This document shows, piece after piece, positions 7,142 through 56,222 of a stretch of 64,000 nt of DNA. The translations under genes and the position numbers were made by a program. Source of the stretch: a virus; UHGV virus genome UHGV-0214148, one strand, 5' to 3'. The notes under the pieces are model-generated. The model was not told where the DNA came from, did no database searches, and was given only the letters and a program-made list of their open reading frames with translations. Every line of letters begins with the position of its first letter. The first letter of the stretch is position 1.

Positions 7142-7142
7142 T

Positions 7143-7667: not shown

Positions 7668-7669
7668 GA

Positions 7670-42908: not shown

Positions 42909-45900
42909 ATGCCGAGAGAAGACGCGGCGCAGTTTAACGGTACGCTAAGCACAGCGACGTACCCTAACCGATTTAACGTGGTCATTCCGCCTGAAGGACC
43001 TTTTTATCGTATCGGATTAAAACTCACAGTAGCCGACGATACCGCGCCTAACGGACGTCGTACTCTGATTGAGGGGCTGGACTACTATTTAGGCTATTAC
43101 TTTAAAGAACTCGCCGAAGCTGAACAAGATCAGATTTATGGCGGGTTTATGTTGCTTACTGCAACAGAAATCGAATATGAGATTTTAGGGGTAGCACGGC
43201 AGTATCGTGTACCGCAATCTGAAATCGGGAAGTTCTTAGTTCGTACTGACCTGAAAGACCCACGTAACGTGGACTGGTCGGAGTTAATGGCGTACGCGCC
43301 GGTTATTCAACCAATCGACCCCCCTGCTAACTTAGAAGAAGCTATTCTGAGGGACGAGGTCGTTAAAGCGTTGAACGATATCCGCAAGAAAATCATTCAG
43401 CGTTCAACAGAGTTAGATGCGGCCTTCACCGAAGTCACTAACCTTATTTACGAGAACGGTAAAAAGATTTTCGATGAAGAACTATACCAACACCACCTTA
43501 ATCCTAACGCTCACCAGTATACGACCAATGACGTTGGGGCCCTTCCGGTTTTAGGACGTGCTGTTGACGCTACAAAAGCGTTTGGGTTGACAATTGACCA
43601 ACTGGCTACGCTGATGGGTTCGGCGGGCATTGAGCAATCAGACGTTGAACAGCTAATGGGTGAAGCCCTCGGTACCGTTTACGGTCGTTGGGGCACCACG
43701 AACGGTAACGAACTAACGTTTAAAACACCGGGTGGACACATCATCAGCATCCGTGGTGATAAGTGGTTAATTACCTCCCCGCAACCGTTAGTGATTAAAG
43801 CAGACCAAGACAACAACGAATCCGGTTTGGCGGTTGAGTTTAGTGCGGGACTGAATACGCTTTGGGTACACTCTGGGTCAGAACAGGATGTATTAGCACC
43901 GGTCTATAACTCTGTGTATCTCGTTACACCAGAAATGGTGAACATGTACCTGACGTCTGTAACGTTACTTGAAGCGAATGCCTATTTCAAACCGTCAGAC
44001 ACCGTAAAACCGTACGGTACAGCGAAGCAGTCTAACCCACTAACGTTGAACGCGAATATTCCCACAGCAACCGAGTCGGTTTATGGGGTGTTTTCGATTA
44101 CGAATATCGCAACCTCTGTAGCGCTAGGCACTGCTATTTCCCAAAAGGCTGTGACCGAGTTAAAAAACCGGTTGGACTTGTACGTTGACGACGACTACAC
44201 GGTTAACGGTAGAGGGTTTGTTAAGACAGGCGACAACATGGTGTTAACCTTAACGAAGGCCGATTTCGGTATCGATAAGATGAATAACACCACACCCATC
44301 GCTAAACCGGTAACAAAAGCATTAGCGAACGTGCTGAAAAATAAAAGTTTGAAGGTACACACGCACACTACCGCTGATTTGGATAATGTCCCGATTGGTA
44401 GCGCAACAGTGGACGGTATCTTACAGCTGTGGGATGCGATTGATACCACGAATGATAAAGCCGTCACATCACGCCAAGGGTGGCTGTTCGCAAAAGAGAT
44501 TAAGAAGGTCTCTGATAAACTGAATACCCTCTTGCCCGCATGGACAACGGCCGGGAGCAAATATACCAACAATTCGATATTGCCGATCTTGTCGATGGGT
44601 AATTACGAAGGTTATGGTAAAAACATGGATGCGCTCCAGATGGTTATAGGGGTACAACAAGGTAAGCTTTATGCTTTAATTAGCTCTAAATCCGCCCTTC
44701 CGGGAACCGAGGGTATTTATTACGCCGTTGCCGGGTTAAAAAACGACAAAAGTCTTGGTGAAATTTACAAAACAACGTTCCGTTATAAGCCGAAAGGGTT
44801 AGAGACGAATTATCCTGGGGTGGAACTAAAAGAAATTACCGTTACGGGTACCGAAGCATTTATAGCGAAAGGCAGCGACGATAATTACTATTTAGTTAAA
44901 CTGAACGGTTCAATGGATTACACCAAACATACCGATGTCAGGTTGGTAACTTTCTCAGAATTTGTTTCAGAAACAACATGGGAATTTGTGCCGAATATGT
45001 TCATGGATCGTGTGGTCATAGCCGATAACGGCGTCTATGTTTTGCGTACGATGCTAATGGCCGATCTGAAAAACAATAGTCTGGTGGACTACATTAAGGA
45101 TACTCCGCAACCTATGTTCCGTGTTGGGTTATTGCGACTTAATAAAACCGATCGGTTTGAACAGGTTGATTTAAGCTCTACACGAAAAATCGGTAAGTGT
45201 GCCGATTTGGTTGAACCTGGCGCGTTCGATGTAGATAATCCGAATACGAAGCGTCTTGCCTACTTCACTGCGGAAGGCAAAGCGTTGTGGACAGTGAATT
45301 TACAATTAACTAGAGGGGTGTCAAGATGGATAACGCCCGTTGTTAAGGACGGTAATCTGTTAACCGTCGGCGTGTCTGGCGTTTGTCTTGGTTTTTCTTC
45401 AACGAAAGGTACCACATTCGGGCCATGGAATGGTGCTTATCGTCTCGACCTATTAACCGGGGAGGTTGGGTTAGAGACAACTAACATCTTCCCAATCAAA
45501 ATCGATACTACAGGTTGCTACTTAAAAGACGGAACAAAAATAGAGCTGAAATGGAAATGGGCTACTCGAAGTTCTGGCTATATGGCCGACAATAGAATCT
45601 GTGTCGGTGATATGGTTTATTCTTGCTGCTGTTCGACAGAAAAACAACTTGCACCGTCTCTCCATTACCAGAAACTCCCAGAAGGAGTTAGTTATCTGGA
45701 CTATGTTAAGTTGAGTGCGGGGTATGAGGGGCAATCTACGTTTGAAAATCGGATAAACCCTGTGGTGGGTTCGGTGTGGAAACCGTCTATGACTCTACCA
45801 TTGTTCTTCCCAGGAACAAACAAAGTATGGCTTAAACATCAAAAAACGGCTTATTTCATTGAAGCCGAATATGATAAAGATACGACTTATGGTTATCCTG

Positions 45901-48095
45901 GATACGGCGGGTTTGGACCAACATCCCGCCGTGTTGAAAAAAAAGCGAACGAATACGGCGTATTGACAAATATACCGCTGGTTGTTACGCCAGACATACC
46001 GAAAGGTCTACTAGATGGGGCTTACTTTATCGGTGCTGAAAGTAAACCATGTAAAGTTGTTTACGGTACCACTACGGTGGCTAGTGATCGGTTGTCTATC
46101 GATGCGGCAGAATGGGCGAAGTTGACTAATATTGTTCAGTCCAGCCAGTTCTCTGGGGCTTCTAACGGCAACGCCTATGAGCGGATTAGCGTAGCTAAGA
46201 CCAAAAAGAACAACTACAGTTTGTCCTTTTGGGTGCTTGGTCAAACGATGTCTGGTGGTCCGCTTTGTATCGCGATAGTGAGTCTTATCTATAAAGACAC
46301 TGACGGGGTAAATAAGTTTGCTTTTTACTTCTTTCAGGTAAAACCGACTATAACCAACGGGGTCATAAGGTTCGTTAGTTCGGAAGCGAGAATGATGACG
46401 TTCAGGGAAAAAATGGCCAGTAACGCCATTAATCTCTCACCCACAGCTTTTAATGGTGAACTTAAACAACGCTCCGGTCAAGTTTTCCTTTATTCGCAAG
46501 ACGGACAAAAGTTCAGATTCTCAATACATAACCTGGTTGGCGGGAATCTTGTAGGATCAGAGATTTCTTTTGCTTTTGGGATAAACTTGACTAAAAAAGG
46601 AGAATGGTTTACCGGCGAAATTCATCGGGCGTGGGGCTATACGTATACGCTGAATAATACATCTGAAGTCTATATACCCGATCTCTCGGGCATCGCGCTA
46701 TTGACTTGTAACTCGGAAGATTTAAACGAGTTGTATCTCGGTGGCGAACAGTATAGAATCTCTGATTTGTTTAACAAAAAATATACTGTTATCGATAAGA
46801 TTATTATTGGCGGCGTACAAACACAGAGCGGTTGGAATTTCTATCTGACGGAGGAAACCGAGTTAAGTTTTGGAAATAAAAGATATACCGTTCCAAGATG
46901 GTCCGTTGATTTAAGCGATGAATTCCCGACTAATCACGCTAACCAGACATTCTACGTTTATGCTGAAGTGGTCGGTTCTACTGCCCAATACCGCATCGGT
47001 TTAGAGCAGTTAGCTGATACCTCGTCGAGACTGTTTGTTGGGACAGTAACCACTGATTCGAACCGTATTACGGATATCAGTATCGATAAAGTAAAACGGT
47101 TAGGTCGTGTAAAAGAGCTGGAAAATCATGCCTCGGTTGTTGATCAGCACGATGTGGCGCAGGCGTTCGACAGGAAAACTGGTCCACTATTAACAGTGGT
47201 TAATAAACCCGTTAAAGCCATTACAGCATCTGCGAGCAAGGGTGCTGGGTATGTCGATGGCCAGAAATGGAATACGTTGTCCGGGATTGCAACGCGGCCC
47301 AGGTTGCCGGTACAGGAAACCTATTCAGGTTATAAAAGTATCAGCAGGGTGGCGTATGAGAACTGCGCTGACCAGTTCTGGCAGAAAGCGGTTGCTGCGA
47401 ACGTTGCAGCGGCTACTGCTTCTGAGAACAAACAAGCAGCAACCGCGAACATGAAGTGGCTGGGCGCGTATACGAGACCGACTACCGGTGCGAGTGTGTG
47501 TCTGGTACTAAGTCTACGTGTTAAAGTACCTGGTAATCCCGGCACCGCTAATCGTAGACTGAAAATCAGGCTTGCGGCTCCGACAGGTATAACTGAAGTT
47601 CGTTACGGGTTAAATCAGTCTGGCGGTACGATGGCTGAACAGACAGTAACGTTGACTGCCAACAGTTATCTGGAAAAAGAGCACGCCGGATTTAAGCCAG
47701 CCGAAGAAGTTCGTGTTCATGCTACCTTTGTCATTCCAAAAAATGAATACGAGAGTTACCGTACGAAGTTCGGTGCGGTTCAGTTGATTGACGTTGAATC
47801 GAACACTGTCATTAAACAGACAGATATCGACACACCGTTTTTCGTGTACACCGCCACGGAGCAAGCGGCACAATCTGGTTTGGTGTATAAAGCGGTTAAG
47901 AGTCAGTTTCGTCAACTCCCGGCTCAACCTGTCGTCATTGTAACTGATGGACAGACAGGGACTACGCCACCGGTGAAAACCTCGTTTGCTGACGGGACAT
48001 TAACGGTCTACGTGGCAACCACGTACGACGCGGTTAACCCAGCACAAACACGCGATATCGACAAGCTCCAGTTCAATCTTATGTTTACATCTTAA
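42909..48095 (+). CDS. large fiber-like virion protein 3 (putative tail fiber)
   Basis: 1728 aa; N-terminal GPFYRIGLKLTV...LIEGLDYYLG pattern; SD AGGAG precedes the ATG. Confidence 0.55.
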   Translation: MPREDAAQFNGTLSTATYPNRFNVVIPPEGPFYRIGLKLTVADDTAPNGRRTLIEGLDYYLGYYFKELAEAEQDQIYGGFMLLTATEIEYEILGVARQYRVPQSEIGKFLVRTDLKDPRNVDWSELMAYAPVIQPIDPPANLEEAILRDEVVKALNDIRKKIIQRSTELDAAFTEVTNLIYENGKKIFDEELYQHHLNPNAHQYTTNDVGALPVLGRAVDATKAFGLTIDQLATLMGSAGIEQSDVEQLMGEALGTVYGRWGTTNGNELTFKTPGGHIISIRGDKWLITSPQPLVIKADQDNNESGLAVEFSAGLNTLWVHSGSEQDVLAPVYNSVYLVTPEMVNMYLTSVTLLEANAYFKPSDTVKPYGTAKQSNPLTLNANIPTATESVYGVFSITNIATSVALGTAISQKAVTELKNRLDLYVDDDYTVNGRGFVKTGDNMVLTLTKADFGIDKMNNTTPIAKPVTKALANVLKNKSLKVHTHTTADLDNVPIGSATVDGILQLWDAIDTTNDKAVTSRQGWLFAKEIKKVSDKLNTLLPAWTTAGSKYTNNSILPILSMGNYEGYGKNMDALQMVIGVQQGKLYALISSKSALPGTEGIYYAVAGLKNDKSLGEIYKTTFRYKPKGLETNYPGVELKEITVTGTEAFIAKGSDDNYYLVKLNGSMDYTKHTDVRLVTFSEFVSETTWEFVPNMFMDRVVIADNGVYVLRTMLMADLKNNSLVDYIKDTPQPMFRVGLLRLNKTDRFEQVDLSSTRKIGKCADLVEPGAFDVDNPNTKRLAYFTAEGKALWTVNLQLTRGVSRWITPVVKDGNLLTVGVSGVCLGFSSTKGTTFGPWNGAYRLDLLTGEVGLETTNIFPIKIDTTGCYLKDGTKIELKWKWATRSSGYMADNRICVGDMVYSCCCSTEKQLAPSLHYQKLPEGVSYLDYVKLSAGYEGQSTFENRINPVVGSVWKPSMTLPLFFPGTNKVWLKHQKTAYFIEAEYDKDTTYGYPGYGGFGPTSRRVEKKANEYGVLTNIPLVVTPDIPKGLLDGAYFIGAESKPCKVVYGTTTVASDRLSIDAAEWAKLTNIVQSSQFSGASNGNAYERISVAKTKKNNYSLSFWVLGQTMSGGPLCIAIVSLIYKDTDGVNKFAFYFFQVKPTITNGVIRFVSSEARMMTFREKMASNAINLSPTAFNGELKQRSGQVFLYSQDGQKFRFSIHNLVGGNLVGSEISFAFGINLTKKGEWFTGEIHRAWGYTYTLNNTSEVYIPDLSGIALLTCNSEDLNELYLGGEQYRISDLFNKKYTVIDKIIIGGVQTQSGWNFYLTEETELSFGNKRYTVPRWSVDLSDEFPTNHANQTFYVYAEVVGSTAQYRIGLEQLADTSSRLFVGTVTTDSNRITDISIDKVKRLGRVKELENHASVVDQHDVAQAFDRKTGPLLTVVNKPVKAITASASKGAGYVDGQKWNTLSGIATRPRLPVQETYSGYKSISRVAYENCADQFWQKAVAANVAAATASENKQAATANMKWLGAYTRPTTGASVCLVLSLRVKVPGNPGTANRRLKIRLAAPTGITEVRYGLNQSGGTMAEQTVTLTANSYLEKEHAGFKPAEEVRVHATFVIPKNEYESYRTKFGAVQLIDVESNTVIKQTDIDTPFFVYTATEQAAQSGLVYKAVKSQFRQLPAQPVVIVTDGQTGTTPPVKTSFADGTLTVYVATTYDAVNPAQTRDIDKLQFNLMFTS

Positions 48096-48135
48096 CGCCA
48101 CGGGACAAGGACGTCTCGGATTAAGGAGAGTGGCC

Positions 48136-49335
48136 ATGGCCTCCATTGTATACCAATACCCTTTAGATTTAACGGGAAGCCTAACCTCTAACGCCGTGGA
48201 GCGTCAGGTTACGTTAGGTACAGGTAAAGTTAACCGTGCGTTTGCTTTTCCTGATGGACCGTTTTATGCTGATACGTTCCGCTTGCGGGTTGCTAACCGA
48301 CCCGATGCGACGTATGAGCGCGGAACGGACTATGAGTTGATTTTTGCACACCCGGCTTACGAGAAATTGACGAAGAACCGGGAAGTGGTAATGGCGGTTG
48401 TTGTAACGAACACCGCGATTCCGACCGATATCACGGTATCGGCGCAAGTAGTCGGGGGCCCGCAGTCGGCAAACGTGACTGCGATAGAACAGGCGATTGC
48501 TGAGTTGAATCTCGATAATCGAACTGTTGGCTTTAAAGACTTGCGAAATGTTCCTGATACATTTCCGTCGGCACCGACGTATAAAGACGTCGGCGATATT
48601 TACGGCTTCGAATATATCATTACAGTGCTCGCTGGCATTAAAGATGCGATAACGGCGGGCGATGCTGTACAGCTTGAGAACATCAAAGCGATTCTCGAAA
48701 GCCTGAAAAACGATTTCCTGGACGCACTGAACGCGCACATTAACGCCACGGGTAACGTCCACCATCTGGACATTCATCAGGTTAACGGGTTAACGGAAAC
48801 GGAGATCCGTGCACTGATTCGTGACGTACAGTCTGCCATCGATGCAACGATTGCCGATATCAATGCATTGAAGAAAGCGGACGAAGCGTTAGGAAAACGT
48901 ATTGATGCTGTTGTCAAATCTTTGGAAGCGTGGAACGACCAACTTAACGTCGTTGCACAAAACTACCAGAAAATGGCACTGGCAATGGCGAACCTAAACT
49001 CGTTAGTGTTACAGTTACAGAAAAATATCAACGATCTGAGCACCAAACTCAACCAAGCGATTCAACGTATTGCTGCGTTAGAACAGCGGGGTAATGAGTC
49101 CGATCAGAAAATTGATAAACTGCAACAAAACCTGGATGCGCTTAAACAGCAGGTTAATAATAACACGAACGCAATCAGTCAGGCGAACCAGAACCTGCAA
49201 AACCATATTGCGGCAGATAACCCACACACAGGCTATCTCCACAAGAAATACGGTGGTGTGGTTCAGGCTCCAGTACACGTTAACGCTAACTTGACGTCCC
49301 GTGATGACGTTCAGGCAGAAGCGGGTACGAAATAA
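48136..49335 (+). CDS. fiber-like protein 4 with long coiled coil
   Basis: ~400 aa; N-terminal GPFYADTFRLRV...RGTDYELIF pattern; central Gln/Asn/Leu heptad-rich region (residues ~230-360). Confidence 0.55.
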   Translation: MASIVYQYPLDLTGSLTSNAVERQVTLGTGKVNRAFAFPDGPFYADTFRLRVANRPDATYERGTDYELIFAHPAYEKLTKNREVVMAVVVTNTAIPTDITVSAQVVGGPQSANVTAIEQAIAELNLDNRTVGFKDLRNVPDTFPSAPTYKDVGDIYGFEYIITVLAGIKDAITAGDAVQLENIKAILESLKNDFLDALNAHINATGNVHHLDIHQVNGLTETEIRALIRDVQSAIDATIADINALKKADEALGKRIDAVVKSLEAWNDQLNVVAQNYQKMALAMANLNSLVLQLQKNINDLSTKLNQAIQRIAALEQRGNESDQKIDKLQQNLDALKQQVNNNTNAISQANQNLQNHIAADNPHTGYLHKKYGGVVQAPVHVNANLTSRDDVQAEAGTK

Positions 49336-49399: not shown

Positions 49400-49798
49400 G
49401 TGATGGCGATCAGTGTTAAAAATGTACGTGACCGAATCACCAACGTAGAGAACCAAATGGCAACTGGCCCACGTGTTGATCCGCAAGTTGCGTCGAAAGC
49501 ACATAATGCCGCCGACACTTTTTCGGGTTGGACGCCAAGTCGGTTAGACTGCGGGGGAAGTTGCAGCTGGACGTGCTCAAACGGCTGTACGCACGGCTGT
49601 ACGAGTTGTTCGGGCACCTGTACGTCAGTATGTGTAGGTAGCTGCTCCTCTGCGTGCGGTAACCAGTGTACTGGATGTAGTTCAACATGTTCCGGCGGCT
49701 GTTCAGGTTGCAGTGGGACCTGTGGGGGTGCTTGCTCGGGCCGTTGTTCTACGGGTTGTTCTGGTGCTTGCTCTGGTGGCTGTTCTGGCCCAACCTAA
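49400..49798 (+). CDS. Cys-rich precursor-like peptide A (leader plus CxxxC-repeat core)
   Basis: 132 aa. ~49-aa leader (AISVKNVRDRITNVENQ...SRLD), then a core starting CGGSCSWTCS with ~21 Cys, mostly at 4-residue spacing and separated by Gly/Ser/Thr. SD AAGGA upstream. Confidence 0.65.
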   Translation: MMAISVKNVRDRITNVENQMATGPRVDPQVASKAHNAADTFSGWTPSRLDCGGSCSWTCSNGCTHGCTSCSGTCTSVCVGSCSSACGNQCTGCSSTCSGGCSGCSGTCGGACSGRCSTGCSGACSGGCSGPT

Positions 49799-49808
49799 GA
49801 GGTGAAAA

Positions 49809-50207
49809 ATGGCAATTGGATTACCTGCGCTACAAGCGCGGCTAAATAACATTGACAACACTGCATTGAAGAATACGGGTGCAGTGCAAAACTATATTCG
49901 TGGGAAAGCGACGAACAACGCAGACTTATTCGGTGGACAAGCTCGCAACCATTACGACTGTGGTGGGAGCTGTAGCTGGACCTGTTCGAGCTGTTCTGGT
50001 GGTTGTACAGGGAACGCATCAGGCGGCTGTGGTTCTTCGTGTTCTGCAAACTGTGTATCAGGTTGCAGCGCAGGCTGTAGCGGATGTTCGAATACATGTT
50101 CTGGTGGCTGCTCAGGAAGCTGTACGGGGAGTTGTTCTAACTCGTGTGTGGGAAACTGTTCTTCAGGCTGTTCGGGCAGTTGTTCTGGTGGGTGTTCTGG
50201 GAGGTAA
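49809..50207 (+). CDS. Cys-rich precursor-like peptide B (paralog of A)
   Basis: 132 aa; leader ends ...NHYD; core begins CGGSCSWTCS and carries ~20 Cys in CxxxC spacing. SD AAGAGGTG upstream. Confidence 0.65.
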   Translation: MAIGLPALQARLNNIDNTALKNTGAVQNYIRGKATNNADLFGGQARNHYDCGGSCSWTCSSCSGGCTGNASGGCGSSCSANCVSGCSAGCSGCSNTCSGGCSGSCTGSCSNSCVGNCSSGCSGSCSGGCSGR

Positions 50208-50209
50208 TT

Positions 50210-50416
50210 GTGATTAGCCTTAAGAACCTTCGTGATCGATTAGTAACAGCGGAAGGGTATATTACGACCGCTAACGCAAACAACTATATTGCAAACCAGG
50301 GCACCGTGTCTTCAACCAATAACCTTGCCGGTTTACCTTTAAGCCATTATAACTGTAACGGCGGATGTAGCTGGTCGTGTAGCGGTAGCTGTAGTAAAGG
50401 TGCGGGGGGAAGGTAA
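50210..50416 (+). CDS. Cys-rich precursor-like peptide C (short-core paralog)
   Basis: GTG start 2 bp after the peptide B stop, with GGGAGG inside the end of gene B as SD. 68 aa: leader VISLKNLRDRLV...SHYN, then core CNGGCSWSCSGSCSKGAGGR. Confidence 0.55.
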   Translation: MISLKNLRDRLVTAEGYITTANANNYIANQGTVSSTNNLAGLPLSHYNCNGGCSWSCSGSCSKGAGGR

Positions 50417-50565: not shown

Positions 50566-51453
50566 ATGAAGAATGATTTACATTTAGCGTACAAAACAAT
50601 TTTCAATCATCCACTTCACATTTCTTCCCCTGATTCCGTACGTGCACACTTAGCAGATGAAGTTCGTCTGCTGACTCAGTTGCCGGGCGAATGGCCTAAA
50701 GTGCGCGGACGTTTCTTTACCGATCGTAAAAACTATCGTGTAGAAAATACGTTTAAGATTCGTGATCTGACGGCAGAAAGTGTGGTGGTCTTTACCGGTG
50801 ACTCCGAGTTGCGTGGTAAACTGGTTGCGGGTAAATATTTCTTTAGTGACGGGATTTTGAATAACTCCGTAGATATGGAATTGTTCTTTACCCCATTTGA
50901 AGAAATGGGCGCAAAACCGGTTGCCCGTCGTTGGTGGTCACCGGATTACTTAGGCTCGTTCCCGTATTTCTTTACCCTGGTAACACCAGAAACGAAGAAC
51001 TATTTCGATACGGAATCGTATATCGAAATTGAAGGGTACGAAGCGTTAGGGATTAATTGCTTAGCGGATTTAATGGCGTATAGCTATAAGTTCGTGTGGG
51101 ATCGTGAACGTTCCGTGTGGGTTGCCCTGACAGATGAACACGAAATCACAAAACGCATCCGTAAGCCTTGGATGCAGCATTTGATTCAAACACGTGTTGG
51201 CGAGCATCCGTCAACAGAAGCGGATCTGGCAAAACTCGTTAGTTTCTTAATGACGAAAGTCACGTTAACTAACGAAGAGAAAGCAGCAGTGTCGGCGGTG
51301 TTGGACCGTAACGTAACGTTGGCGGATTTAGAACGTTTAAATGTCCGTTATAAAGACCTTAACCGTATTTTGGAAGCGTATAACTCTCCATTCTTGTTAA
51401 CCCCTGGTGCTAACGTAGACGACGATCCTTTGTTCGCCATTGATTATATTTAA
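50566..51453 (+). CDS. hypothetical protein in peptide/radical-SAM operon (accessory candidate)
   Basis: ~295-aa ORF between the peptide genes and the radical-SAM genes; SD TGGAG; no motif recognised. Confidence 0.55.
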   Translation: MKNDLHLAYKTIFNHPLHISSPDSVRAHLADEVRLLTQLPGEWPKVRGRFFTDRKNYRVENTFKIRDLTAESVVVFTGDSELRGKLVAGKYFFSDGILNNSVDMELFFTPFEEMGAKPVARRWWSPDYLGSFPYFFTLVTPETKNYFDTESYIEIEGYEALGINCLADLMAYSYKFVWDRERSVWVALTDEHEITKRIRKPWMQHLIQTRVGEHPSTEADLAKLVSFLMTKVTLTNEEKAAVSAVLDRNVTLADLERLNVRYKDLNRILEAYNSPFLLTPGANVDDDPLFAIDYI

Positions 51454-51474: not shown

Positions 51475-52398
51475 ATGACAACCAATGCAGAACCAAGGTT
51501 ATCGAATCGTTTATACGATAAACCCACCGTATTGTCCGTAGTCGCTACGTCCAAGTGCAACCTGGATTGTAGCTTCTGCGGTGGAGCCTATTACATGAAT
51601 CGTGAAGATTCTCCGCGAGAGTTTCAACGTGAGCGAATTTTGGAAGCGCTGGAAGCTAATCCAACCATTACCGAAATTCAGTGGACGGGTGGTGAGCCAT
51701 TACTGGCAACCCGTAAAATTGAGGCGTTTGTTGACGAATTAAAAGTGATTCGTCCAGAACTCAAACACCAGTTGTATACCAATGGCTTAAAGATGCGTAA
51801 ATCGCATCTCCCGTTGCTAAAACAGTTTGACAATGTCTACGTTAGCATCGATGGGTTTAAGTCGTCTGAGCGCCCGTTTATGCGCTTTATTGACGAAGGC
51901 TGTTACGAAGCACTGGAAACGATCTACGAGCTGGATAATGTCCAGACTTGGGGTGTCCTGACACGGGACCGTTTAGGGGACAAACGCTGGCACGAAGATA
52001 TTATTCAGCTGCACAGCGCGATTTACCATTACGGTTTCCGTGCAATGACGTTACTCTTAGATGCGAAAATGCCAAAACCTTTATCGCCCGACCACGTCAT
52101 GAACTTTATTTACGGCTACTATCAGGTTCAGGATAACATTGAACGACTGAATGTAGTAAATAGTCGTGAATGCGGCTTTACGGTAAGTAAAGTGTTTGAA
52201 GAAGGGTGTAACGTTTGCAGCGAAAGTCTTTGGATTAATGCAGACGGTGGTGAGCACCAACTCCAGAATGCACCTAACGTTCTGGAATCGGGATGTAACC
52301 AACTGGCCTTCTCTATCGGTGTAGAGGCGTACGAATATATTCGTCGCGTAGTGATGGCAGGGCGTAATAGAGGGGCGGCAAATGAGTCAAGTAAATGA
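51475..52398 (+). CDS. radical SAM enzyme with C-terminal Cys cluster (SPASM/twitch-like)
   Basis: CNLDCSFC at residues 28-35 (CxxxCxxC), GGEPLL glycine-rich motif, and C-terminal cysteines CGF...EGCNVCSES...SGCNQ. Confidence 0.75.
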   Translation: MTTNAEPRLSNRLYDKPTVLSVVATSKCNLDCSFCGGAYYMNREDSPREFQRERILEALEANPTITEIQWTGGEPLLATRKIEAFVDELKVIRPELKHQLYTNGLKMRKSHLPLLKQFDNVYVSIDGFKSSERPFMRFIDEGCYEALETIYELDNVQTWGVLTRDRLGDKRWHEDIIQLHSAIYHYGFRAMTLLLDAKMPKPLSPDHVMNFIYGYYQVQDNIERLNVVNSRECGFTVSKVFEEGCNVCSESLWINADGGEHQLQNAPNVLESGCNQLAFSIGVEAYEYIRRVVMAGRNRGAANESSK

Positions 52399-53704
52399 AT
52401 TCCCTAAGCAGTTAACGTATCAGATCGTAACCAACCTTTCGTGTAACCTGGACTGCGAATATTGTTACGAACGTAAGTACCCGCGTAACAACAAAGCGGC
52501 GGATATTGTTGATTTCTTACACGCCTGTTTTGAACGTGATAAAAACGAACCGAATGTTGAAGTTATTATCGACATTATCGGTGGTGAGCCGTTCATGCAG
52601 CCTAAACTGCTGCTGGCTGCGTTTGAAACCGCTGAGCAGTTGTGTAAAGAACACAACCGACCGTTTATGTTTAGTATCTCCACGAACGGAACGCTGTTAG
52701 ATCGTCCGTTGAACCGTGAGATTGTAGAACGTTGGAAAGACAAACTTTCGGTTGGGGTTTCGATTGACGGCTTACCTGAGTCCCATGACCGTTATCGTAT
52801 CTTCACAACAACACGCCAGGGTTCTTACGAAGCCGCAGTACGTGGCTATAACTACTTAAAAGAGGTTGGCATTGCAGAGCTCGGCGTAAAAGCAACCTTT
52901 ACGTTAGAAACGCTGCCGTTCTATGCTGCGGGGATGAAGTCATTAATTGACATTACTGGCGGTGGGACAATTTCTGGAAACGTAACTTTCGAAGACGTTA
53001 TGCCACGTAGCATGGCGACGTCAATCGCTTTACAGATGATGGATGTGATAGATTACTGGGTTGAGAAAGGATTACACACCAACCCACGTAATATCTTATC
53101 GCACATCATTCCAGAAGGGTTGGATTTCGATACGATTTGGGAACCGAACTGGCGTGACCAGTTACTGTATAATGACACCGTACGGTTGAACCCAGAACGT
53201 TTACGTCCGTTCTGTGGGACGTTAACGCACATGACGTGCTTAGGGTTTGACCGTAAGATCTTTGGCTGTAACCGCTTTATGTCAACGGTAACGTCGCGTT
53301 CTGCGGTGTTTGAGTTGGTAGGTCGGGAATTCGTCAGTCTGGACAACGGTAAATTGTTAGAAGAGATTCAAACGCAATATACCAACTACCCAGAGACCTG
53401 TTTAGGTTGTCCGATGAAACACGCTTGTGGTAGCTGCGCGGCTGCTTCTTACGAGAACGGGGAAGGAACGTTAGAAGACCGTAAAGCGTATCACGCTGAA
53501 CGACGTCAGTGCGGCTGGACGACAGCGAAACTGATGGTGGCGGAATACTGGAAACAGAAGATGGGTACGACGTCAGCAAAAGCGTTCCATGACACGAGCA
53601 TGTGTTATTGCCCACGCTGTGTTCGTGAACGTGCCCAAAAGGAAAAATTATTAAGAGAAGCCAAAGATGAAACCAATTCTGATCAACAATATTACGAAGC
53701 GTAG
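52382..53704 (+). CDS. radical SAM / SPASM-domain enzyme (peptide-maturase-like)
   Basis: CNLDCEYC at residues 21-28, GGEPF, and a C-terminal canonical SPASM pattern CLGCPMKHACGSC (CxxCx5CxxxC) plus further Cys pairs. Overlaps the preceding radical-SAM gene by 17 bp. Confidence 0.8.
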   Translation: MSQVNEFPKQLTYQIVTNLSCNLDCEYCYERKYPRNNKAADIVDFLHACFERDKNEPNVEVIIDIIGGEPFMQPKLLLAAFETAEQLCKEHNRPFMFSISTNGTLLDRPLNREIVERWKDKLSVGVSIDGLPESHDRYRIFTTTRQGSYEAAVRGYNYLKEVGIAELGVKATFTLETLPFYAAGMKSLIDITGGGTISGNVTFEDVMPRSMATSIALQMMDVIDYWVEKGLHTNPRNILSHIIPEGLDFDTIWEPNWRDQLLYNDTVRLNPERLRPFCGTLTHMTCLGFDRKIFGCNRFMSTVTSRSAVFELVGREFVSLDNGKLLEEIQTQYTNYPETCLGCPMKHACGSCAAASYENGEGTLEDRKAYHAERRQCGWTTAKLMVAEYWKQKMGTTSAKAFHDTSMCYCPRCVRERAQKEKLLREAKDETNSDQQYYEA

Positions 53705-54239
53705 AATTCGACTTCTGGATAAGTTTCTGGAAAACAGTAAGCTATTCGGTTGTTATGTGGTGATTAACGGTGAAGATTTTACCGATGACGTAAAACGCTT
53801 ACTGATTCGTCACGGCGTGACTGTAATCATCCCAATGTACTGCACCGAACTTACTGACCTGTCGGTCGCGGAAATTGAAAAACGTAACCCAGGGTTTGAA
53901 GAACGGGTATTGGATTTCCCACGTCACAAAATTGCGTTTCTACGCCGCTCTTTAAGCGAACCCAGCGCAGAATCTATCACTGTGTTGGCATTGTCCTTCC
54001 CCGGCATTACTATCTTCGCAACACGTAACCCGAACTCACCGATTGATGGGTTTTACGATGAGCGGGAGAAATTTAATAGCGTGATTTTTCCTGAGCTAAC
54101 GCCAGAAGAATGCCAGGGTATCCGTATCGATTGGGAATCTGACTTCGACACAAGATTCCGTCATATCGATTTTGAACTGTTAATCGAATTAGGGTTGATT
54201 AAAGGAGACGATGAATGTCTGCTACTGGTGAAGGCTTAA
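53667..54239 (+). CDS. hypothetical protein (operon member)
   Basis: 190-aa ORF overlapping the radical-SAM gene end by 38 bp. Confidence 0.5.
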   Translation: MKPILINNITKRRIRLLDKFLENSKLFGCYVVINGEDFTDDVKRLLIRHGVTVIIPMYCTELTDLSVAEIEKRNPGFEERVLDFPRHKIAFLRRSLSEPSAESITVLALSFPGITIFATRNPNSPIDGFYDEREKFNSVIFPELTPEECQGIRIDWESDFDTRFRHIDFELLIELGLIKGDDECLLLVKA

Positions 54240-54886
54240 CGAAAGAAGAAATCCGTCGCCGTTATTTTGCGCACGATTTACCGATCGACCGTCATGGTAA
54301 CTACATGGAGAAAATCGGTAGCGAAGATCACGGCCGTACAGGGTTTTGTGCGTTACTGCACTATAAGCTGATTGATGGGATGTCTGATCGCGAAGCATTG
54401 GAACAAATGCGTAACTACGACATGTCTGAAATCGAAGCACGGTTTACGCTACAGAAAGCGAAAGACTTTGTTAACGACACGTTGGGGATTGACCTGGAAG
54501 AAATTCGTGCAGGTTTACGTTCCACGGTGCGGTACATCTTTACCGATGTTCAGAAAATTCTAAGCGCTTTGGAATTCCGTTATCAGGATGCACGCTATGC
54601 TGAGATTCAGGTAGGTGATTTCACTTTCCAGGCAGATGAGAAGTCACAGGTAGCACTGAGTCGTTATATCCAGTCAGAAACTGCGCCAGCGTATTGGTTA
54701 ACGGCTAACAACACCCGTATCGAACCGTTTACGTTAGAACAGTGCAAGACGTTGCTGGCAGCAATCGTTGAGCGTGATCAAAGACTACACCACGCAATGT
54801 CTGAGCAGAAAAGAGAAGTCAGGGCTTGGGCTGAAGCACGTGATTACGATTCGATAAAAGCGTTTGCGTTAGAGCAAGGGCTGTAA
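54215..54886 (+). CDS. hypothetical protein (operon member)
   Basis: 223-aa ORF; SD GGAG 7 nt upstream; overlaps the previous ORF by 25 bp. Confidence 0.5.
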   Translation: MSATGEGLTKEEIRRRYFAHDLPIDRHGNYMEKIGSEDHGRTGFCALLHYKLIDGMSDREALEQMRNYDMSEIEARFTLQKAKDFVNDTLGIDLEEIRAGLRSTVRYIFTDVQKILSALEFRYQDARYAEIQVGDFTFQADEKSQVALSRYIQSETAPAYWLTANNTRIEPFTLEQCKTLLAAIVERDQRLHHAMSEQKREVRAWAEARDYDSIKAFALEQGL

Positions 54887-54894
54887 TCGACAGC

Positions 54895-54955
54895 GAAAAA
54901 AAAAAACAGTATACCTACCTCCCGTAATAGGAGGTAGGTATTTTTATTTTTTCTT
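54895..54955. terminator. bidirectional rho-independent terminator
   Basis: A-run, hairpin ATACCTACCTCC-CGTAAT-AGGAGGTAGGTAT (54911-54941), then TTTTTATTTTTT; between convergent genes. Confidence 0.75.
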
Positions 54956-55484
54956 AGGACGTAAAACCGTCCAGCTCACCGTTGGTGGTGGCCAGGTCAA
55001 TACGATTATCAACAACCTTCGGCGTAATTACGAAAGTTGCCATTACACCTGGCTTATAACGGAGGTTCTTTTCAGTAACGGTACACGTTACCGTACGCAG
55101 AGTGACGCTATCGTGTTCGTCTTTCTGGTCTTCGGTGGTGTACTCAACGTCACCAGGTGCGATAGAGTCGTCAGGTTTTACTTTATTGATGTAAAACTGT
55201 AATCGGTCGCGTAGTTCGTTTTCTCCAGTCCAGAGAGCCAAATCGTCCGTTACCTCAATGCGTCCGACAACGCCAGGTTCCAGACGATCGTAATGCAGTT
55301 CGATTGCGCCTTTAAAATTTTCAGACTCTGTACGTGCGGTCATGGTAACTTTGGTATTTTTATCGCCCTTTTCAAGAGCGACAGGTTGACCAAAAGTTAC
55401 CTCTTTATCAGTGACCTGATGCGGTAGCTCTGTGTTAGCAGCATTATAAAGCGCAACTAACATCATCTGGTTAGTAGCTGCCAT
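54954..55484 (-). CDS. hypothetical protein, paralog of 55552-56083 (conserved C-terminal GELDGFT)
   Basis: 176 aa; shares KITLTAKAES-NFKG and the C-terminal LDGFT motif with its neighbour. Confidence 0.5.
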   Translation of the reverse strand: MAATNQMMLVALYNAANTELPHQVTDKEVTFGQPVALEKGDKNTKVTMTARTESENFKGAIELHYDRLEPGVVGRIEVTDDLALWTGENELRDRLQFYINKVKPDDSIAPGDVEYTTEDQKDEHDSVTLRTVTCTVTEKNLRYKPGVMATFVITPKVVDNRIDLATTNGELDGFTS

Positions 55485-55551
55485 TATCTTAAATCCTTAA
55501 AATGAAAGTTAAAGAAATATCGGGGGAGGTTACCACCCCCCCCCGAATCAA

Positions 55552-56083: not shown

Positions 56084-56222
56084 GTTTTTACCTCGTAAGT
56101 AGTATGGGTGGTTTGCATAGTATTGTTCGGATTATAGAAGTGTTGTTAATAGTTATGACAGACAGCAGTAAGGGTTGTCTGTAAAATTATTATTTTTTAA
56201 CTTTTTATAGAAGGGTGAAAAC

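What the first reader, a model, noticed from the sequence alone, without database searches (positions are those of the whole stretch)
51475..53704. Two distinct radical-SAM enzymes encoded in tandem with overlapping reading frames
Both ORFs have an N-terminal CxxxCxxC cluster and GGEP motif, but their C-terminal Cys-rich auxiliary domains differ (a shorter Cys cluster in the first, a canonical SPASM CxxCx5CxxxC in the second). The genes overlap by 17 bp. Two maturases could install different crosslink types, or act on different precursors (long-core A/B versus short-core C). Radical SAM enzymes need anaerobic Fe-S assembly, implying function in an anaerobically growing host.
Basis: partly seen in the sequence, partly recalled or inferred. 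Interest (0 to 1): 0.75.

Follow-up and report, generated by a model that had tools for sequence, protein, structure and literature searches.

The report
Radical-SAM enzyme pair for tail-fibre tips
Two overlapping genes in a giant Salmonella-type phage encode different radical-SAM enzymes that, by comparison with many other phages, most likely modify cysteine-rich tail-fibre ends rather than make a free antibiotic-like peptide.

Summary
ORFs 51475-52398 (307 aa) and 52382-53704 (440 aa) overlap by 17 bp. Both are radical-SAM enzymes with CX3CX2C and GGEP motifs, and their C-terminal domains are unrelated.

The long enzyme has eight conserved auxiliary cysteines, a full SPASM domain. It is a sister of the PapB and TIGR04115 peptide maturases but scores below both family cut-offs. 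The short enzyme has three conserved auxiliary cysteines.

The window is a relative of jumbo phage SPN3US. The pair belongs to a conserved module:
- a (Cys-X3)n-tailed protein;
- a 250-300 aa unknown protein (gp165-like);
- usually the short enzyme;
- the long enzyme.

In unrelated phages and prophages (P2-like, lambda-like, another jumbo phage) the Cys-rich stretch is the C-terminal tail of a recognisable tail-fibre protein, and the module sits among tail genes. The window's ORFs A, B and C are free-standing copies of that fibre tail.

The most likely function is covalent maturation of a fibre-tip domain, probably by thioether cross-links. The chemistry and virion incorporation are inferred, not shown.

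I found no published description. I class it as a new variant of a known kind.

The parts
42909..48095 (+). Large baseplate or tail-fibre protein (SPN3US gp168 homologue). This is context: it starts the co-directional tail-fibre block.
   Evidence: ORF, syntenic with SPN3US gp168. gp168 is a tail protein found in virions (PMC5105663; PMC5694885 Suppl. Table 1).
48130..49335 (+). Coiled-coil virion protein (SPN3US gp167 homologue), a candidate fibre shaft that precedes the Cys-rich ORFs.
   Evidence: phrog_2163 'virion structural protein', E 5e-103, plus weak tail-fibre PHROG hits. gp167 was detected in SPN3US virions at SC/M 1.90 and is not marked as a head protein. A tail-fibre protein of the same PHROG precedes the Cys-repeat protein in locus L118.
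49403..49798 (+). Cys-rich ORF A (131 aa): a roughly 50-aa N-terminal segment followed by 21 Cys, mostly at C-x3 spacing. Likely substrate.
   Evidence: - phrog_6085 E 1.6e-40 and weak TIGR04114.
- Spacing counts.
- Under purifying selection against SPN3US: pN 0.22, pS 0.75.
- Aligns to the C-terminal tails of fibre proteins in L004, L101, L104 and L106.
49809..50207 (+). Cys-rich ORF B (132 aa, 20 Cys), a paralogue of ORF A. Likely substrate.
   Evidence: phrog_6085 E 1.4e-39. TIGR04114 scores 19.4 bits, just under its cut-off of 20. pN 0.22, pS 0.78.
50210..50416 (+). Short Cys-rich ORF C (68 aa, GTG start). It has the same N-terminal segment and CSWSC junction but only 4 Cys.
   Evidence: It is 90% identical in protein to an unannotated SPN3US ORF, with pN 0.10 and pS 0.79.
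50566..51453 (+). gp165-like protein of unknown function, the invariable fourth member of the module. The ORF finder starts it at a TTG at 50554, but homologues start at the ATG at 50566.
   Evidence: - phrog_8030 E 1.9e-141.
- An iterative HMM finds it in all 23 close loci.
- Searching from this family leads back to fibre plus long radical-SAM loci.
- No match to Pfam or NCBIfam, and nothing significant among PDB sequences (best E 0.91). All homologues are 'hypothetical'.
51475..52398 (+). Short radical-SAM enzyme (307 aa): a CX3CX2C core plus a C-terminal Cx2C...x25...GC motif with three conserved Cys.
   Evidence: AlphaFold model pLDDT 89.9. Best fold matches are CteB, SuiB and anSME, with viperin-like enzymes close behind. 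Best PDB sequence match is SkfB.
52382..53704 (+). Long radical-SAM/SPASM enzyme (440 aa): a CX3CX2C core plus eight conserved auxiliary Cys, and a clade-specific C-terminal CxCxxC.
   Evidence: AlphaFold model pLDDT 88.7. Foldseek best match is CteB 5wgg (E 2.6e-15, TM 0.62), followed by ChlB, anSME and SuiB.
53667..54239 (+). gp162-like protein of unknown function (190 aa). It overlaps the end of the long enzyme and is specific to the jumbo-phage clade.
   Evidence: phrog_7988 E 2e-55. Found only in the window and its 11 jumbo-phage relatives. Not detected in SPN3US virions.
54215..54886 (+). DUF4376 protein (gp161-like), possibly a tail-fibre-assembly-type protein.
   Evidence: Pfam DUF4376, 43.5 bits against a cut-off of 25. 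Weak tail-fibre PHROG hits. The tail-fibre-assembly reading and the resemblance of an ORF beside collar-type fibre genes in L098 are my own reading of the sequences and were not scanned.
54911..54941 (.). Bidirectional terminator-like hairpin that closes the + strand block.
   Evidence: The scan finds it on both strands, with 12-13 bp stems followed by T-runs.

Best explanation
The two overlapping genes encode a cooperating pair of radical-SAM enzymes that post-translationally mature a cysteine-rich tail-fibre domain.

**The substrates.** They are (Cys-X3)n stretches rich in Gly, Ser and Thr. In most phages that carry the module, this stretch is the C-terminal tail of a tail-fibre protein. In the window's jumbo-phage lineage it is split off as three small proteins (ORFs A, B, C). 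These keep the last roughly 50 residues of fibre sequence, including the NAD-x-L-x-G...Y-x-C-x2/3-CSW(T/S)C junction, ahead of the repeats.

**The enzymes.** The long enzyme has one SAM cluster and two auxiliary [4Fe-4S] clusters and is a sister of PapB and TIGR04115. It most likely abstracts a hydrogen atom from a residue next to each cysteine and joins the cysteine sulfur to that carbon. The result would be a ladder of small thioether rings that makes the fibre tip covalently stapled and resistant to reduction and proteolysis. The short enzyme has one SAM cluster and one three-Cys auxiliary site. It acts on the same substrate, either installing a second kind of modification or working as part of a complex. 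The gp165-like protein is an obligatory partner, perhaps presenting the substrate, since neither enzyme has an RRE domain.

**Shown:** the enzyme classes, the conserved cysteines, the conserved module, the fusion of the repeat to fibre proteins, and the tail-gene context.

**Inferred:** the thioether chemistry, the division of labour between the enzymes, the role of gp165, and incorporation of ORFs A-C into the virion.
For: **Enzyme class**
- Pfam and NCBIfam matches.
- Eight conserved auxiliary Cys in the long enzyme and three in the short one.
- High-confidence models whose best structural matches are the thioether-forming CteB, then ChlB, anSME and SuiB.

**Link to the substrate**
- A Cys-X(1-4) repeat ORF lies on the same strand, within roughly 3 kb by the listed coordinates, in 79 of 80 viral loci. 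The one exception (L157) is cut off upstream.
- None is found in 71 loci around unrelated SPASM enzymes (about 0.9 Mb). In the 64-kb window only ORFs A and B match.

**Module**
- The gp165-like gene is in 23 of 23 close loci.
- The short enzyme is in 20 of them and fused to the long one in L105.
- Searching from gp165-like alone recovers three further loci carrying gp165-like and the long enzyme, two of them with a clear Cys-tailed fibre.

**Tail-fibre identity**
- L005: the Cys-tailed protein carries the Pfam Phage_tail_fib N-terminal domain (E 1.8e-40). It lies between the P2-type baseplate genes J and I and the sheath gene.
- L100 and L105: the Cys-tailed proteins hit many tail-fibre PHROGs.
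- L100, L101 and L004: a GpJ-like central tail fibre lies directly or shortly upstream.
- L106: the module sits between the baseplate and fibre genes and the sheath gene.
- phrog_6085, the family of ORFs A and B, matches the C-terminal parts of these fibres. The alignment shows a shared junction motif.

**Other support**
- ORFs A, B and C are under purifying selection.
- gp161-gp165 are absent from SPN3US virions while gp167-gp173 are present, as expected if the enzymes are assembly factors.
Against: - No chemistry was observed, so thioether formation rests only on family resemblance. The long enzyme scores far below the PapB and TIGR04115 cut-offs (117 against 340, and 115 against 350).
- The cores lack the Asp/Glu acceptors that PapB uses (PMC9413430 abstract as listed).
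- In the window's lineage the Cys-rich proteins are free-standing and small (68-132 aa), which is also what a RiPP precursor looks like.
- They were not reported in SPN3US virions. This is weak evidence. The true ORFs are not annotated in the reference record, so they would be missing from a search database built from that annotation; the paper's database was not checked. Their cores hold at most one Lys or Arg.
- The short enzyme is missing from L098 and L100, and no second radical-SAM gene was called in L167, L168 or L169. It is therefore not essential to the basic reaction.
- Pairwise similarity between gp167 and fibre proteins from other loci is not significant.
Confidence: 0.55

Rival explanations
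1. Classical RiPP pathway. ORFs A, B and C are leader-plus-core precursors. The two enzymes cross-link the cores, and the products are released at lysis as free bioactive peptides (antibacterial, metal-binding or signalling) that are not part of the virion.
For: - The ORFs are small, with a leader-like N-terminal 50 residues.
- The long enzyme's nearest families are RiPP maturases.
- Bacterial TIGR04115 loci pair the enzyme with short peptides, for example a 73-aa ORF in L009.
- The proteins were not reported in SPN3US virions.
Against: - No peptidase, transporter or immunity family was recognised in gp165, the two enzymes, gp162 or gp161.
- The 'leader' is homologous to the fibre sequence that precedes the repeats in fused fibre proteins.
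- The module always sits in tail-gene clusters. In at least eight separate lineages the repeat is the C-terminus of a 250-480 aa fibre-like protein, which cannot be a diffusible peptide without processing.
- The proteomic absence is uninformative, because the reference annotation has the wrong frame.
Confidence: 0.2
2. The substrates are the same but the chemistry differs. The enzymes do not make thioethers. They might instead oxidise Cys to formylglycine as anSME does, epimerise residues, form C-C or C-O links, or methylate.
For: - anSME is among the best structural and sequence matches.
- The epimerase EpeE and other classes appear in the fold lists.
- All family scores are below cut-off.
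- The core lacks PapB-type acidic acceptors.
Against: - The two top-scoring NCBIfam families are PapB (thioether-forming) and TIGR04115, which is defined by Cys-repeat targets. The thioether-forming SCIFF and CcpM models score lower (59.5 and 56.9 bits).
- The substrate is defined by evenly spaced cysteines. This is the hallmark of Cys-donor cross-linking in the PapB system (PMC9413430 abstract) and, from general knowledge, in SCIFF.
- From general knowledge, the anSME target motif C/S-x-P/A-x-R is absent from the cores, which hold at most one Arg.
Confidence: 0.15
3. The short enzyme is not an independent catalyst. It is a structural or substrate-binding partner of the long enzyme, in effect a replacement for an RRE.
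For: - It is fused to the long enzyme in L105, and that copy has lost the C-terminal Cys motif.
- It is dispensable in several lineages.
- Neither enzyme has an RRE.
Against: - CX3CX2C, GGE and other core residues are invariant across 24 homologues.
- They are also kept in the distant Deferribacter and Campylobacter copies and in the L105 fusion. This argues for retained SAM cleavage.
Confidence: 0.1
4. The Cys-rich stretches are metal-binding or disulfide-forming modules that need no enzymatic modification, and the two enzymes act on something else, such as another fibre protein, a nucleotide or a cofactor.
For: Cys-rich Gly/Ser repeats could bind metals, and the chemistry has not been shown. 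The short enzyme has partial low-scoring hits to MoaA, QueE, NrdG and viperin models.
Against: - The enzyme and the repeat co-occur almost perfectly across very different phages and gene orders.
- The hits to non-peptide families cover only the common N-terminal core.
- The long enzyme aligns over its full length with TIGR04115.
Confidence: 0.05

Closest known systems
TIGR04115 / TIGR04114 (and Pfam tSAM_targ_Cxxx_rpt): CXXX-repeat peptide and its radical-SAM/SPASM maturase. To my knowledge this system is defined by comparative genomics and has no published biochemistry.
   Same: - A SPASM radical-SAM enzyme sits next to a protein with tandem Cys-X3 repeats.
- The long enzyme aligns with the model over its full length, residues 10-371 against model positions 3-345 of 359.
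- ORF B reaches 19.4 bits on the repeat model, whose cut-off is 20.
- True members of the family occur in many phage contigs (L109 scores 434 bits), also beside tail genes.
   Different: - It scores 115 bits against a cut-off of 350, so it is a sister clade and not a member.
- It carries two extra partners, the short radical-SAM enzyme and the gp165-like protein, which the HMM search did not find in the 60 TIGR04115-type viral loci, apart from a second short radical-SAM ORF in L120, L136 and L161.
- Its substrate is a fibre tail or a free-standing fibre-tail copy.
PapB / PapA (freyrasin), a ranthipeptide maturase
   Same: It is the best NCBIfam match (117 bits). Like PapB it has a SPASM domain, has no N-terminal RRE-sized extension, and its substrate has cysteines at regular x3 spacing.
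   Different: - It falls below the cut-off of 340.
- PapB links Cys to Asp or Glu in CX3D/E motifs (PMC9413430 abstract as listed). The cores here have no acidic residues.
- PapA is, from general knowledge, a short precursor peptide, not a virion protein.
CteB (SCIFF/thermocellin thioether maturase, PDB 5wgg)
   Same: It is the best match among solved structures for both enzymes, by sequence for the long one and by fold for both. It has a SPASM domain with two auxiliary clusters.
   Different: CteB carries an N-terminal RRE of about 100 residues. The alignment starts at CteB residue 105 against residue 19 here. Identity is only 15-20%.
HxsB / HxsC / HxsD / HxsA (His-Xaa-Ser repeat system)
   Same: The architecture is parallel: a tandem short-repeat substrate, a long SPASM radical-SAM enzyme, a short radical-SAM enzyme and a fourth protein of unknown role. 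This description of the system is from general knowledge. The long enzyme hits HxsB (75 bits) and the short one hits HxsC (39 bits).
   Different: All scores are far below the cut-offs of 370 and 268. The repeat is HXS rather than CXXX. gp165 shows no match to any NCBIfam model, including HxsD. The Hxs system is not phage-associated as far as I know.
SkfB (sporulation killing factor maturase, PDB 6efn)
   Same: It is the best PDB sequence match of the short enzyme (E 3e-6). From general knowledge, it is a thioether-forming radical-SAM enzyme with a single-cluster 'twitch' auxiliary domain, which fits the three conserved C-terminal Cys of the short enzyme.
   Different: The match covers only the core (residues 20-156). 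SkfB has an N-terminal extension. Homology of the C-terminal domains was not demonstrated.

Membership tests
Radical SAM superfamily (PF04055) | A CX3CX2C motif that binds the SAM-cleaving [4Fe-4S] cluster | tested here: met
   C28/C32/C35 in the short enzyme and C21/C25/C28 in the long one. Both sets are invariant in the family alignments.
Radical SAM superfamily (PF04055) | Pfam score above the gathering threshold | tested here: met
   53.0 and 57.0 bits against a threshold of 29.5.
Radical SAM superfamily (PF04055) | Partial TIM-barrel fold with a GGE SAM-binding motif | tested here: met
   GGEP at residues 72 and 67. AlphaFold models have pLDDT 89.9 and 88.7, and all their top matches are radical-SAM structures.
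SPASM-domain radical SAM enzymes (TIGR04085-type) | Seven or eight C-terminal Cys, including Cx2Cx5Cx3C, that ligate two auxiliary [4Fe-4S] clusters | tested here: met
   This applies to the long enzyme only. Eight Cys are conserved: C278, C286, C296, C340, C343, C349, C352 and C377. The central motif is one residue shorter (Cx2Cx5Cx2C) throughout the clade. Cluster binding itself was not tested.
SPASM-domain radical SAM enzymes (TIGR04085-type) | The same feature, tested in the short enzyme | tested here: not met
   Only three C-terminal Cys are conserved: C245 or C246, C248 and C274. The C-terminal domain does not align with that of the long enzyme. This is compatible with a one-cluster, twitch-like domain, which was not demonstrated.
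TIGR04115 CXXX-repeat-target maturase | NCBIfam score at or above the curated cut-off of 350 bits | tested here: not met
   114.7 bits. For comparison, phage locus L109 scores 434 bits and bacterial locus L009 scores 505 bits.
TIGR04115 CXXX-repeat-target maturase | Encoded next to a protein with tandem CXXX repeats | tested here: met
   ORFs A, B and C lie 1.1-2.1 kb upstream of the short enzyme's start, on the same strand. The association holds in 79 of 80 viral loci and in 0 of 71 controls.
PapB-family ranthipeptide maturase (NF047865) | NCBIfam score at or above the cut-off of 340 bits | tested here: not met
   116.8 bits.
PapB-family ranthipeptide maturase (NF047865) | A substrate with Cys-X3-Asp/Glu acceptor motifs | tested here: not met
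   There is no Asp or Glu in the Cys-rich cores of ORFs A, B or C.
RiPP biosynthetic gene cluster (generic) | A short precursor with a leader and a core | tested here: inconclusive
   ORFs A-C are 68-132 aa with a 50-aa N-terminal part. That part is homologous to the fibre sequence preceding the repeats in 250-480 aa fibre proteins elsewhere.
RiPP biosynthetic gene cluster (generic) | A RiPP recognition element (PqqD-like RRE) in the maturase or as a separate protein | tested here: not met
   Both enzymes start 20-28 residues before the cluster motif. CteB aligns only from its residue 105 onward. No Pfam or NCBIfam RRE hit was found in any protein of the block. Whether gp165 is a divergent RRE could not be tested.
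RiPP biosynthetic gene cluster (generic) | A leader peptidase and/or an export or immunity gene | tested here: not met
   No such family was detected in gp165, the two enzymes, gp162 or gp161 by Pfam, NCBIfam or PHROGs. gp165 and gp162 have no recognised family beyond a PHROG of unknown function, so a novel peptidase cannot be excluded.
Phage tail-fibre protein (for the Cys-rich substrates) | Recognisable fibre domains on the same polypeptide | tested here: not met
   This holds for the window's ORFs A-C, which carry only the last roughly 50 fibre-like residues. It is met in relatives: L005 has Phage_tail_fib (E 1.8e-40), and L100, L105, L098 and L106 hit tail-fibre PHROGs.
Phage tail-fibre protein (for the Cys-rich substrates) | Location in a tail or baseplate gene cluster | tested here: met
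   In the window the ORFs lie directly after the gp168 and gp167 tail proteins. In relatives they lie in P2-like, lambda-like and other tail modules.
Phage tail-fibre protein (for the Cys-rich substrates) | Physical presence in the virion | not testable with these tools
   Published SPN3US proteomics lists gp167-gp173 but none of gp161-gp166. The real ORFs A-C are not in the reference annotation, and their cores are almost free of tryptic sites.
HxsB/HxsC paired radical-SAM system | NCBIfam scores above the cut-offs (370 and 268 bits) | tested here: not met
   75.3 bits for the long enzyme and 38.9 bits for the short one. This is an analogy in architecture only.

The most novel reading that the evidence does not exclude
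Radical-SAM 'RiPP chemistry' is used by many unrelated tailed phages to cross-link the tips of their own tail fibres covalently. These include jumbo phiKZ-like, P2-like and lambda-like phages, and a large set of uncultured phages carrying true TIGR04115 enzymes. The CXXX-repeat/maturase system known only from comparative genomics would then largely be a maturation system for virion structural proteins. The window's lineage would show a split form, with free-standing fibre-tail subunits, and an expanded enzyme set: the long SPASM enzyme, the short enzyme and the gp165-like partner.
Probability: 0.45. Interest if true: 0.85.

Novelty: new variant of a known kind. Interest (0 to 1): 0.66.

Why it matters
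**New type of modification on a virus particle.** To my knowledge, radical-SAM cross-linking has been studied on small secreted peptides and a few enzymes, and has not been described as a modification of virus particles. If these enzymes staple tail-fibre tips, that would be new for virion proteins. It would bear on fibre stability, receptor binding and host range.

**A function for an orphan system.** It would give a biological role to the CXXX-repeat/maturase system.

**Practical consequences for phage work.**
- Engineering or heterologous production of such fibres would need the enzymes, gp165 and working Fe-S supply.
- Current reference annotations are wrong here. In SPN3US, gp166 is called in the wrong frame and gp164 is truncated. 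Proteomic searches built on that annotation would miss the true substrates.

**Directly testable.** SPN3US is a genetic model phage with amber-mutant and proteomics pipelines already in place.

Tried and rejected
1. **Genome-contig scan with the long-enzyme alignment.** The pattern chosen was the generic CNLxCxYC motif, so about 70 of the 80 loci were unrelated SPASM enzymes. I used them only as a negative control.
2. **Profile search of PDB sequences with the gp165-like alignment.** Nothing significant; the best E-value was 0.9.
3. **Pfam and NCBIfam on gp165 and gp162.** No match.
4. **Profile search for gp165 relatives.** Only 52 clusters were found, all 'hypothetical' and none with a Pfam domain.
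5. **Pairwise comparison of gp167 with fibre proteins of L004 and L118.** Only short motif matches with E above 0.1. The link rests on the shared phrog_2163 alone.
7. **Sigma-70 promoter scan.** No more hits than in shuffled sequence, and from general knowledge of little use for a phiKZ-like phage with its own RNA polymerases. Only the terminator at 54911-54941 was kept.
8. **SPN3US proteomics papers.** They list gp167-gp173 but not gp161-gp166. I rejected this as evidence against virion incorporation of ORFs A-C, because those ORFs are not annotated in the reference record.
9. **Ten literature searches.** No paper links radical-SAM enzymes or CXXX repeats with tail fibres. The library lacks most subscription journals, so prior work cannot be excluded.
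10. **"ORF C is a decaying pseudogene."** Considered and rejected. It is 90% identical in protein to the SPN3US copy while synonymous sites are saturated.

Full report
**1. Observation**

The ORF list shows 51475..52398 (+, 307 aa) and 52382..53704 (+, 440 aa). They share the 17 bases ATGAGTCAAGTAAATGA.

- **Motifs.** The short protein has CNLDCSFC at 28-35 and GGEP at 72. The long one has CNLDCEYC at 21-28 and GGEP at 67.
- **Significance.** Both pass the Pfam Radical_SAM threshold (53 and 57 bits against 29.5) and Fer4_12.
- **Start codons.** Both are backed by homologues. M1 of the short enzyme is nearly invariant in 24 relatives of 291-320 aa. The homologues above 90% identity to the long enzyme are all 440 aa.
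- **Distinctness.** They are 25% identical over about 150 residues. A profile-profile comparison aligns only the catalytic cores, 14-206 against 8-214 (probability 98.2%), and leaves the C-terminal domains unaligned.
- **Correction.** The SPASM motif is Cx2Cx5Cx2C (CLGCPMKHACGSC), not ...Cx3C. This spacing is constant across the 29 aligned homologues.

**2. Where the window comes from**

The region is about 72-74% identical in DNA to Salmonella jumbo phage SPN3US and its relatives in the genus Seoulvirus. Over the 15-kb stretch fetched around the long enzyme it matches IMG/VR contig UViG_3300029126_000001 (225 kb), with 100% protein identity for that enzyme.

Gene order matches SPN3US gp168 to gp161:

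| Window coordinates | Product | SPN3US gene |
|---|---|---|
| 42909-48095 | large baseplate/fibre protein | gp168 |
| 48130-49335 | coiled-coil virion protein | gp167 |
| 49403-50416 | three Cys-rich ORFs (A, B, C) | (mis-annotated, see section 5) |
| 50566-51453 | unknown protein | gp165 |
| 51475-52398 | short radical-SAM enzyme | gp164 |
| 52382-53704 | long radical-SAM enzyme | gp163 |
| 53667-54239 | unknown protein | gp162 |
| 54215-54886 | DUF4376 protein | gp161 |

A bidirectional terminator-like hairpin at 54911-54941 closes the block.

**3. The long enzyme**

- **Conserved cysteines.** In an alignment of 29 homologues down to 27% identity, the three SAM-cluster cysteines are invariant. 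Eight further cysteines are invariant or nearly so: C278, C286, C296, C340, C343, C349, C352 and C377. This is the pattern of a full SPASM domain with two auxiliary clusters.
- **Family matches.** The best NCBIfam matches are PapB (117 bits, cut-off 340) and TIGR04115, the 'CXXX-repeat target' maturase (115 bits, cut-off 350, aligned over nearly the whole model). Next come other peptide maturases, including the geopeptide maturase, HxsB, YhhB, QhpD, SCIFF and CcpM, together with the anaerobic sulfatase maturase.
- **Structure.** The AlphaFold model is confident (pLDDT 88.7). Its best matches among solved structures are CteB (E 2.6e-15, TM 0.62), ChlB, anSME and SuiB.
- **No RRE.** The cluster motif starts at residue 21, and CteB aligns only from its residue 105.

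**4. The short enzyme**

- **Homologues.** At the sensitivity of the word-indexed search it has homologues only in jumbo phages (40 clusters).
- **Conserved residues.** C28/C32/C35, GGE, C248 and C274 are invariant, and C245 or C246 is always present. The auxiliary site is therefore a three-Cys motif, Cx(1-2)C...x25...GC.
- **Distant copies.** The same motif appears in the copies from Deferribacter and Campylobacter prophages, which align along the core or the full length.
- **Structure.** The model has pLDDT 89.9. Its best fold matches are again CteB, SuiB and anSME, but viperin-like enzymes follow closely. The best PDB sequence match is SkfB.
- **Assignment.** It is a peptide-modifying radical-SAM candidate with a single auxiliary site. 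The class assignment is weaker than for the long enzyme.

**5. The Cys-rich ORFs are real genes and are mis-annotated in the reference phage**

- ORFs A and B have 21 and 20 cysteines, mostly at C-x3 spacing. The residues between them are almost only Gly, Ser and Thr, with no Asp or Glu and one Arg each. ORF C has four cysteines.
- Against SPN3US, synonymous sites are saturated (pS 0.75-0.79) while pN is 0.22, 0.22 and 0.10. All three are therefore under purifying selection in the Cys frame.
- In the SPN3US records the annotated gp166 is an out-of-frame ORF over ORF B that translates to Val/Ala/Arg-rich sequence. The three true ORFs are not annotated.
- The annotated gp164 starts 40 codons too late and so lacks the CX3CX2C motif.

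**6. A conserved module**

*Association with the substrate.* A scan of IMG/VR with the long-enzyme alignment returned 80 loci.

- A regular expression for seven or more cysteines spaced by 1-4 residues found such an ORF on the same strand in 79 of them, within roughly 3 kb by the listed coordinates. The exception is truncated upstream.
- The same expression hit only ORFs A and B in the whole 64-kb window.
- It hit none of 71 loci (about 0.9 Mb) around unrelated SPASM enzymes.

*Two groups.*

- **Group I** comprises the window, its eleven jumbo-phage relatives, and the loci at 31-40% identity (L004, L005, L098-L106). It always carries a gp165-like gene (23 of 23 by iterative HMM). It usually carries the short enzyme: 20 of 23, plus a fusion of the short and long enzymes in the 686-aa protein of L105.
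- **Independent check.** Searching from the gp165-like family led back to three further loci carrying gp165-like and the long enzyme. Two of them (L168, L169) have a clear Cys-tailed fibre. In L167 the fibre's C-terminus looks frameshifted or mis-called.
- **Gene order varies.** It is short-long in the window and L004, long-short in L005, and short, gp165-like, long in L106.
- **Group II** comprises 60 loci at 24-28% identity. It has a single enzyme that is TIGR04115 proper or nearly so (L109 scores 434 bits, L118 scores 304 bits). Its Cys-repeat proteins carry up to 363 residues of repeats.

**7. The link to tail fibres**

In Group I outside the jumbo phages, the Cys repeat is the C-terminal tail of a longer protein.

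| Locus | Phage type | Evidence |
|---|---|---|
| L005 | Campylobacter P2-like prophage | A 384-aa protein with the Pfam Phage_tail_fib N-terminal domain (E 1.8e-40) ends in ...GCNGCSGSCSGSCSSGCTACSGCSGSCSG.... It lies after baseplate genes J and I and before the sheath and tube genes. |
| L004 | Deferribacter prophage with a GpJ-like central fibre | A 302-aa protein with fibre-type H-x-H/YYTE repeats ends in ...NADQLGGQAGSYYRCSDCSWTCSSSCTGSC.... |
| L100, L105 | L100: GpJ directly upstream; L105: a 284-kb jumbo contig | Both carry classic fibre repeats and hit many tail-fibre PHROGs. |
| L098, L106 | L106: myovirus-like | Several tail-fibre or tail PHROG hits. |
| L101 | lambda-like | GpJ lies shortly upstream. 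|
| L106 | myovirus-like | The module sits between the baseplate-wedge and fibre genes and the sheath gene. |

- phrog_6085, the family of ORFs A and B, matches the C-terminal parts of these fibres.
- An alignment shows that ORFs A, B and C correspond to the last 90-160 residues of the L004, L101, L104 and L106 fibres. They share the junction N-A-D-x-L-x-G-Q...Y-Y-x-C-x2/3-C-S-W-(T/S)-C.
- In Group II the Cys-repeat protein also follows baseplate and fibre genes. In L118 the preceding fibre protein hits phrog_2163, the family of the window's gp167.

**8. Most likely mechanism**

*Shown:* two different radical-SAM enzymes with intact catalytic and auxiliary motifs; a strict genomic association with Cys-X3 repeats and with a gp165-like protein; and the placement of that repeat at the C-terminus of tail fibres in tail-gene clusters of unrelated phages.

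*Inferred:* the enzymes act on the repeat; the reaction is Cys-to-carbon thioether formation as in PapB, CteB and SCIFF; the product is a covalently stapled fibre tip; and in Seoulvirus-type phages the tip is supplied as separate small subunits that join a fibre such as gp167.

The SPN3US virion proteome fits enzymes that are assembly factors, because gp161-gp165 are absent while gp167-gp173 are present. It says nothing about ORFs A-C.

**9.

- The description of the enzymes is right.
- The idea that they modify the Cys-rich ORFs is well supported.
- The suggestion that two enzymes serve long-core and short-core precursors is contradicted by loci with one substrate and both enzymes, and by the fusion protein.
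- The inference of an anaerobic host gains no support. The long enzyme is present in 65 isolated phages of Erwinia, Salmonella, E. coli, Cronobacter and Proteus. From general knowledge, such hosts are routinely grown in air, and many radical-SAM enzymes are active in aerobically grown enterobacteria.
For the short one there are only partial core hits to MoaA, QueE, NrdG and viperin.

**10. Rivals**

- **Classical RiPP product.** This remains possible for the free-standing ORFs A-C (about 0.2).
- **Other chemistry on the same substrate.** This cannot be excluded (about 0.15).
- **A non-catalytic short enzyme.** This is unlikely given its invariant motifs.
- **Enzymes acting on an unrelated substrate.** This is unlikely given the co-occurrence statistics.

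**11. Comparison with what is known, and novelty**

The nearest defined system is the CXXX-repeat/maturase pair (TIGR04114/TIGR04115, and Pfam tSAM_targ_Cxxx_rpt as seen). The window's enzyme fails that family's score cut-off but shares its defining genomic association. PapB and CteB are the nearest characterised enzymes. HxsB/HxsC is an architectural analogue with paired enzymes.

New here are the second enzyme, the gp165-like partner, and above all the tail-fibre identity of the substrate. Ten full-text searches found no paper connecting these systems with tail fibres. The library is incomplete, so this is absence of evidence only.

**12. Limits**

- No biochemistry was done, and virion incorporation has not been shown.
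- Viral loci are partly redundant. There are roughly eleven independent Group I lineages.
- gp165 has no recognisable fold or family.

Noticed in passing
L001 (SPN3US NC_027402) 6950-7979; window 49403-50416: The annotated SPN3US gp166 (L001 7426-7761) is an out-of-frame ORF that translates to Val/Ala/Arg-rich sequence. The three real Cys-rich ORFs (6950-7342, 7353-7757, 7773-7979) are not annotated. The window has the same kind of spurious alternative-frame ORFs over this region, for example 49879-50217.
   Followed up: yes
L001 8911-9825 (SPN3US gp164): The annotated start of SPN3US gp164 (264 aa) lies 40 codons downstream of an in-frame ATG at 8911. It therefore removes the CX3CX2C cluster motif. 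Homologues support a protein of about 305 aa.
   Followed up: yes
window 53603-53620 (long enzyme residues 408-413): An extra C-x-C-x2-C motif (CYCPRC) lies in the C-terminal extension of the long enzyme. It is conserved in the eleven closest aligned sequences (46-85% identity) and absent from the more distant homologues. It may be an additional metal site.
   Followed up: partly
L105 6131-8188 (IMGVR_UViG_3300028886_000034, 284 kb): The short and long radical-SAM enzymes are fused into one 686-aa protein. The short half keeps CX3CX2C and GGEP but has lost the C-terminal Cys motif.
   Followed up: partly
L107-L166 (IMG/VR), e.g. L109 4786-6225, L113 3587-4669: Many uncultured phages, several from sample 3300045988 with contigs of 140-260 kb, carry a TIGR04115-type enzyme next to proteins with 50-363 residues of Cys-X(1-4) repeats. 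Many of the proteins examined share an N-terminal '...DF..LK..V..E..RR...' domain. A 180-280 aa ORF that is not gp165-like lies between the two genes.
   Followed up: partly
L134/L138 and L147/L155: Two pairs of loci come from the two ends of the same contigs (254,709 and 258,965 bp). Each end carries a long-enzyme copy with its own Cys-repeat ORF, so there are either two cassettes per genome or a terminal repeat in the assembly.
   Followed up: no
window 54954-55484 (-) and 55552-56118 (-): Two adjacent paralogous genes on the opposite strand both end in ...GELDGFT. In SPN3US the gene at this position is gp160, a very abundant head protein of paralogue family B. A G-rich terminator-like hairpin lies between them at 55520-55546.
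   Followed up: no
window 54215-54886; L098 4638-5336; L005 10068-10433: A DUF4376 protein lies two genes after the enzymes in the window. By eye, a similar ORF sits next to collar-type fibre genes in L098. In the Campylobacter prophage a DUF1353 protein follows the enzymes. These may be further fibre-assembly factors.
   Followed up: no
L167 4805-6013: The called fibre gene upstream of the gp165-like gene ends in Ala/Val/Leu/Arg-rich sequence instead of Cys repeats. This looks like a frameshift or a wrong-frame gene call across a Cys-repeat region, the same annotation hazard as in SPN3US.
   Followed up: no
P0121 and P0012-P0037: Near-identical copies of both enzymes are deposited as proteins of Salmonella enterica, E. 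coli and '[Curtobacterium] plantarum' assemblies, on contigs of about 240 kb. These are probably jumbo-phage genomes carried along in bacterial assemblies.
   Followed up: no
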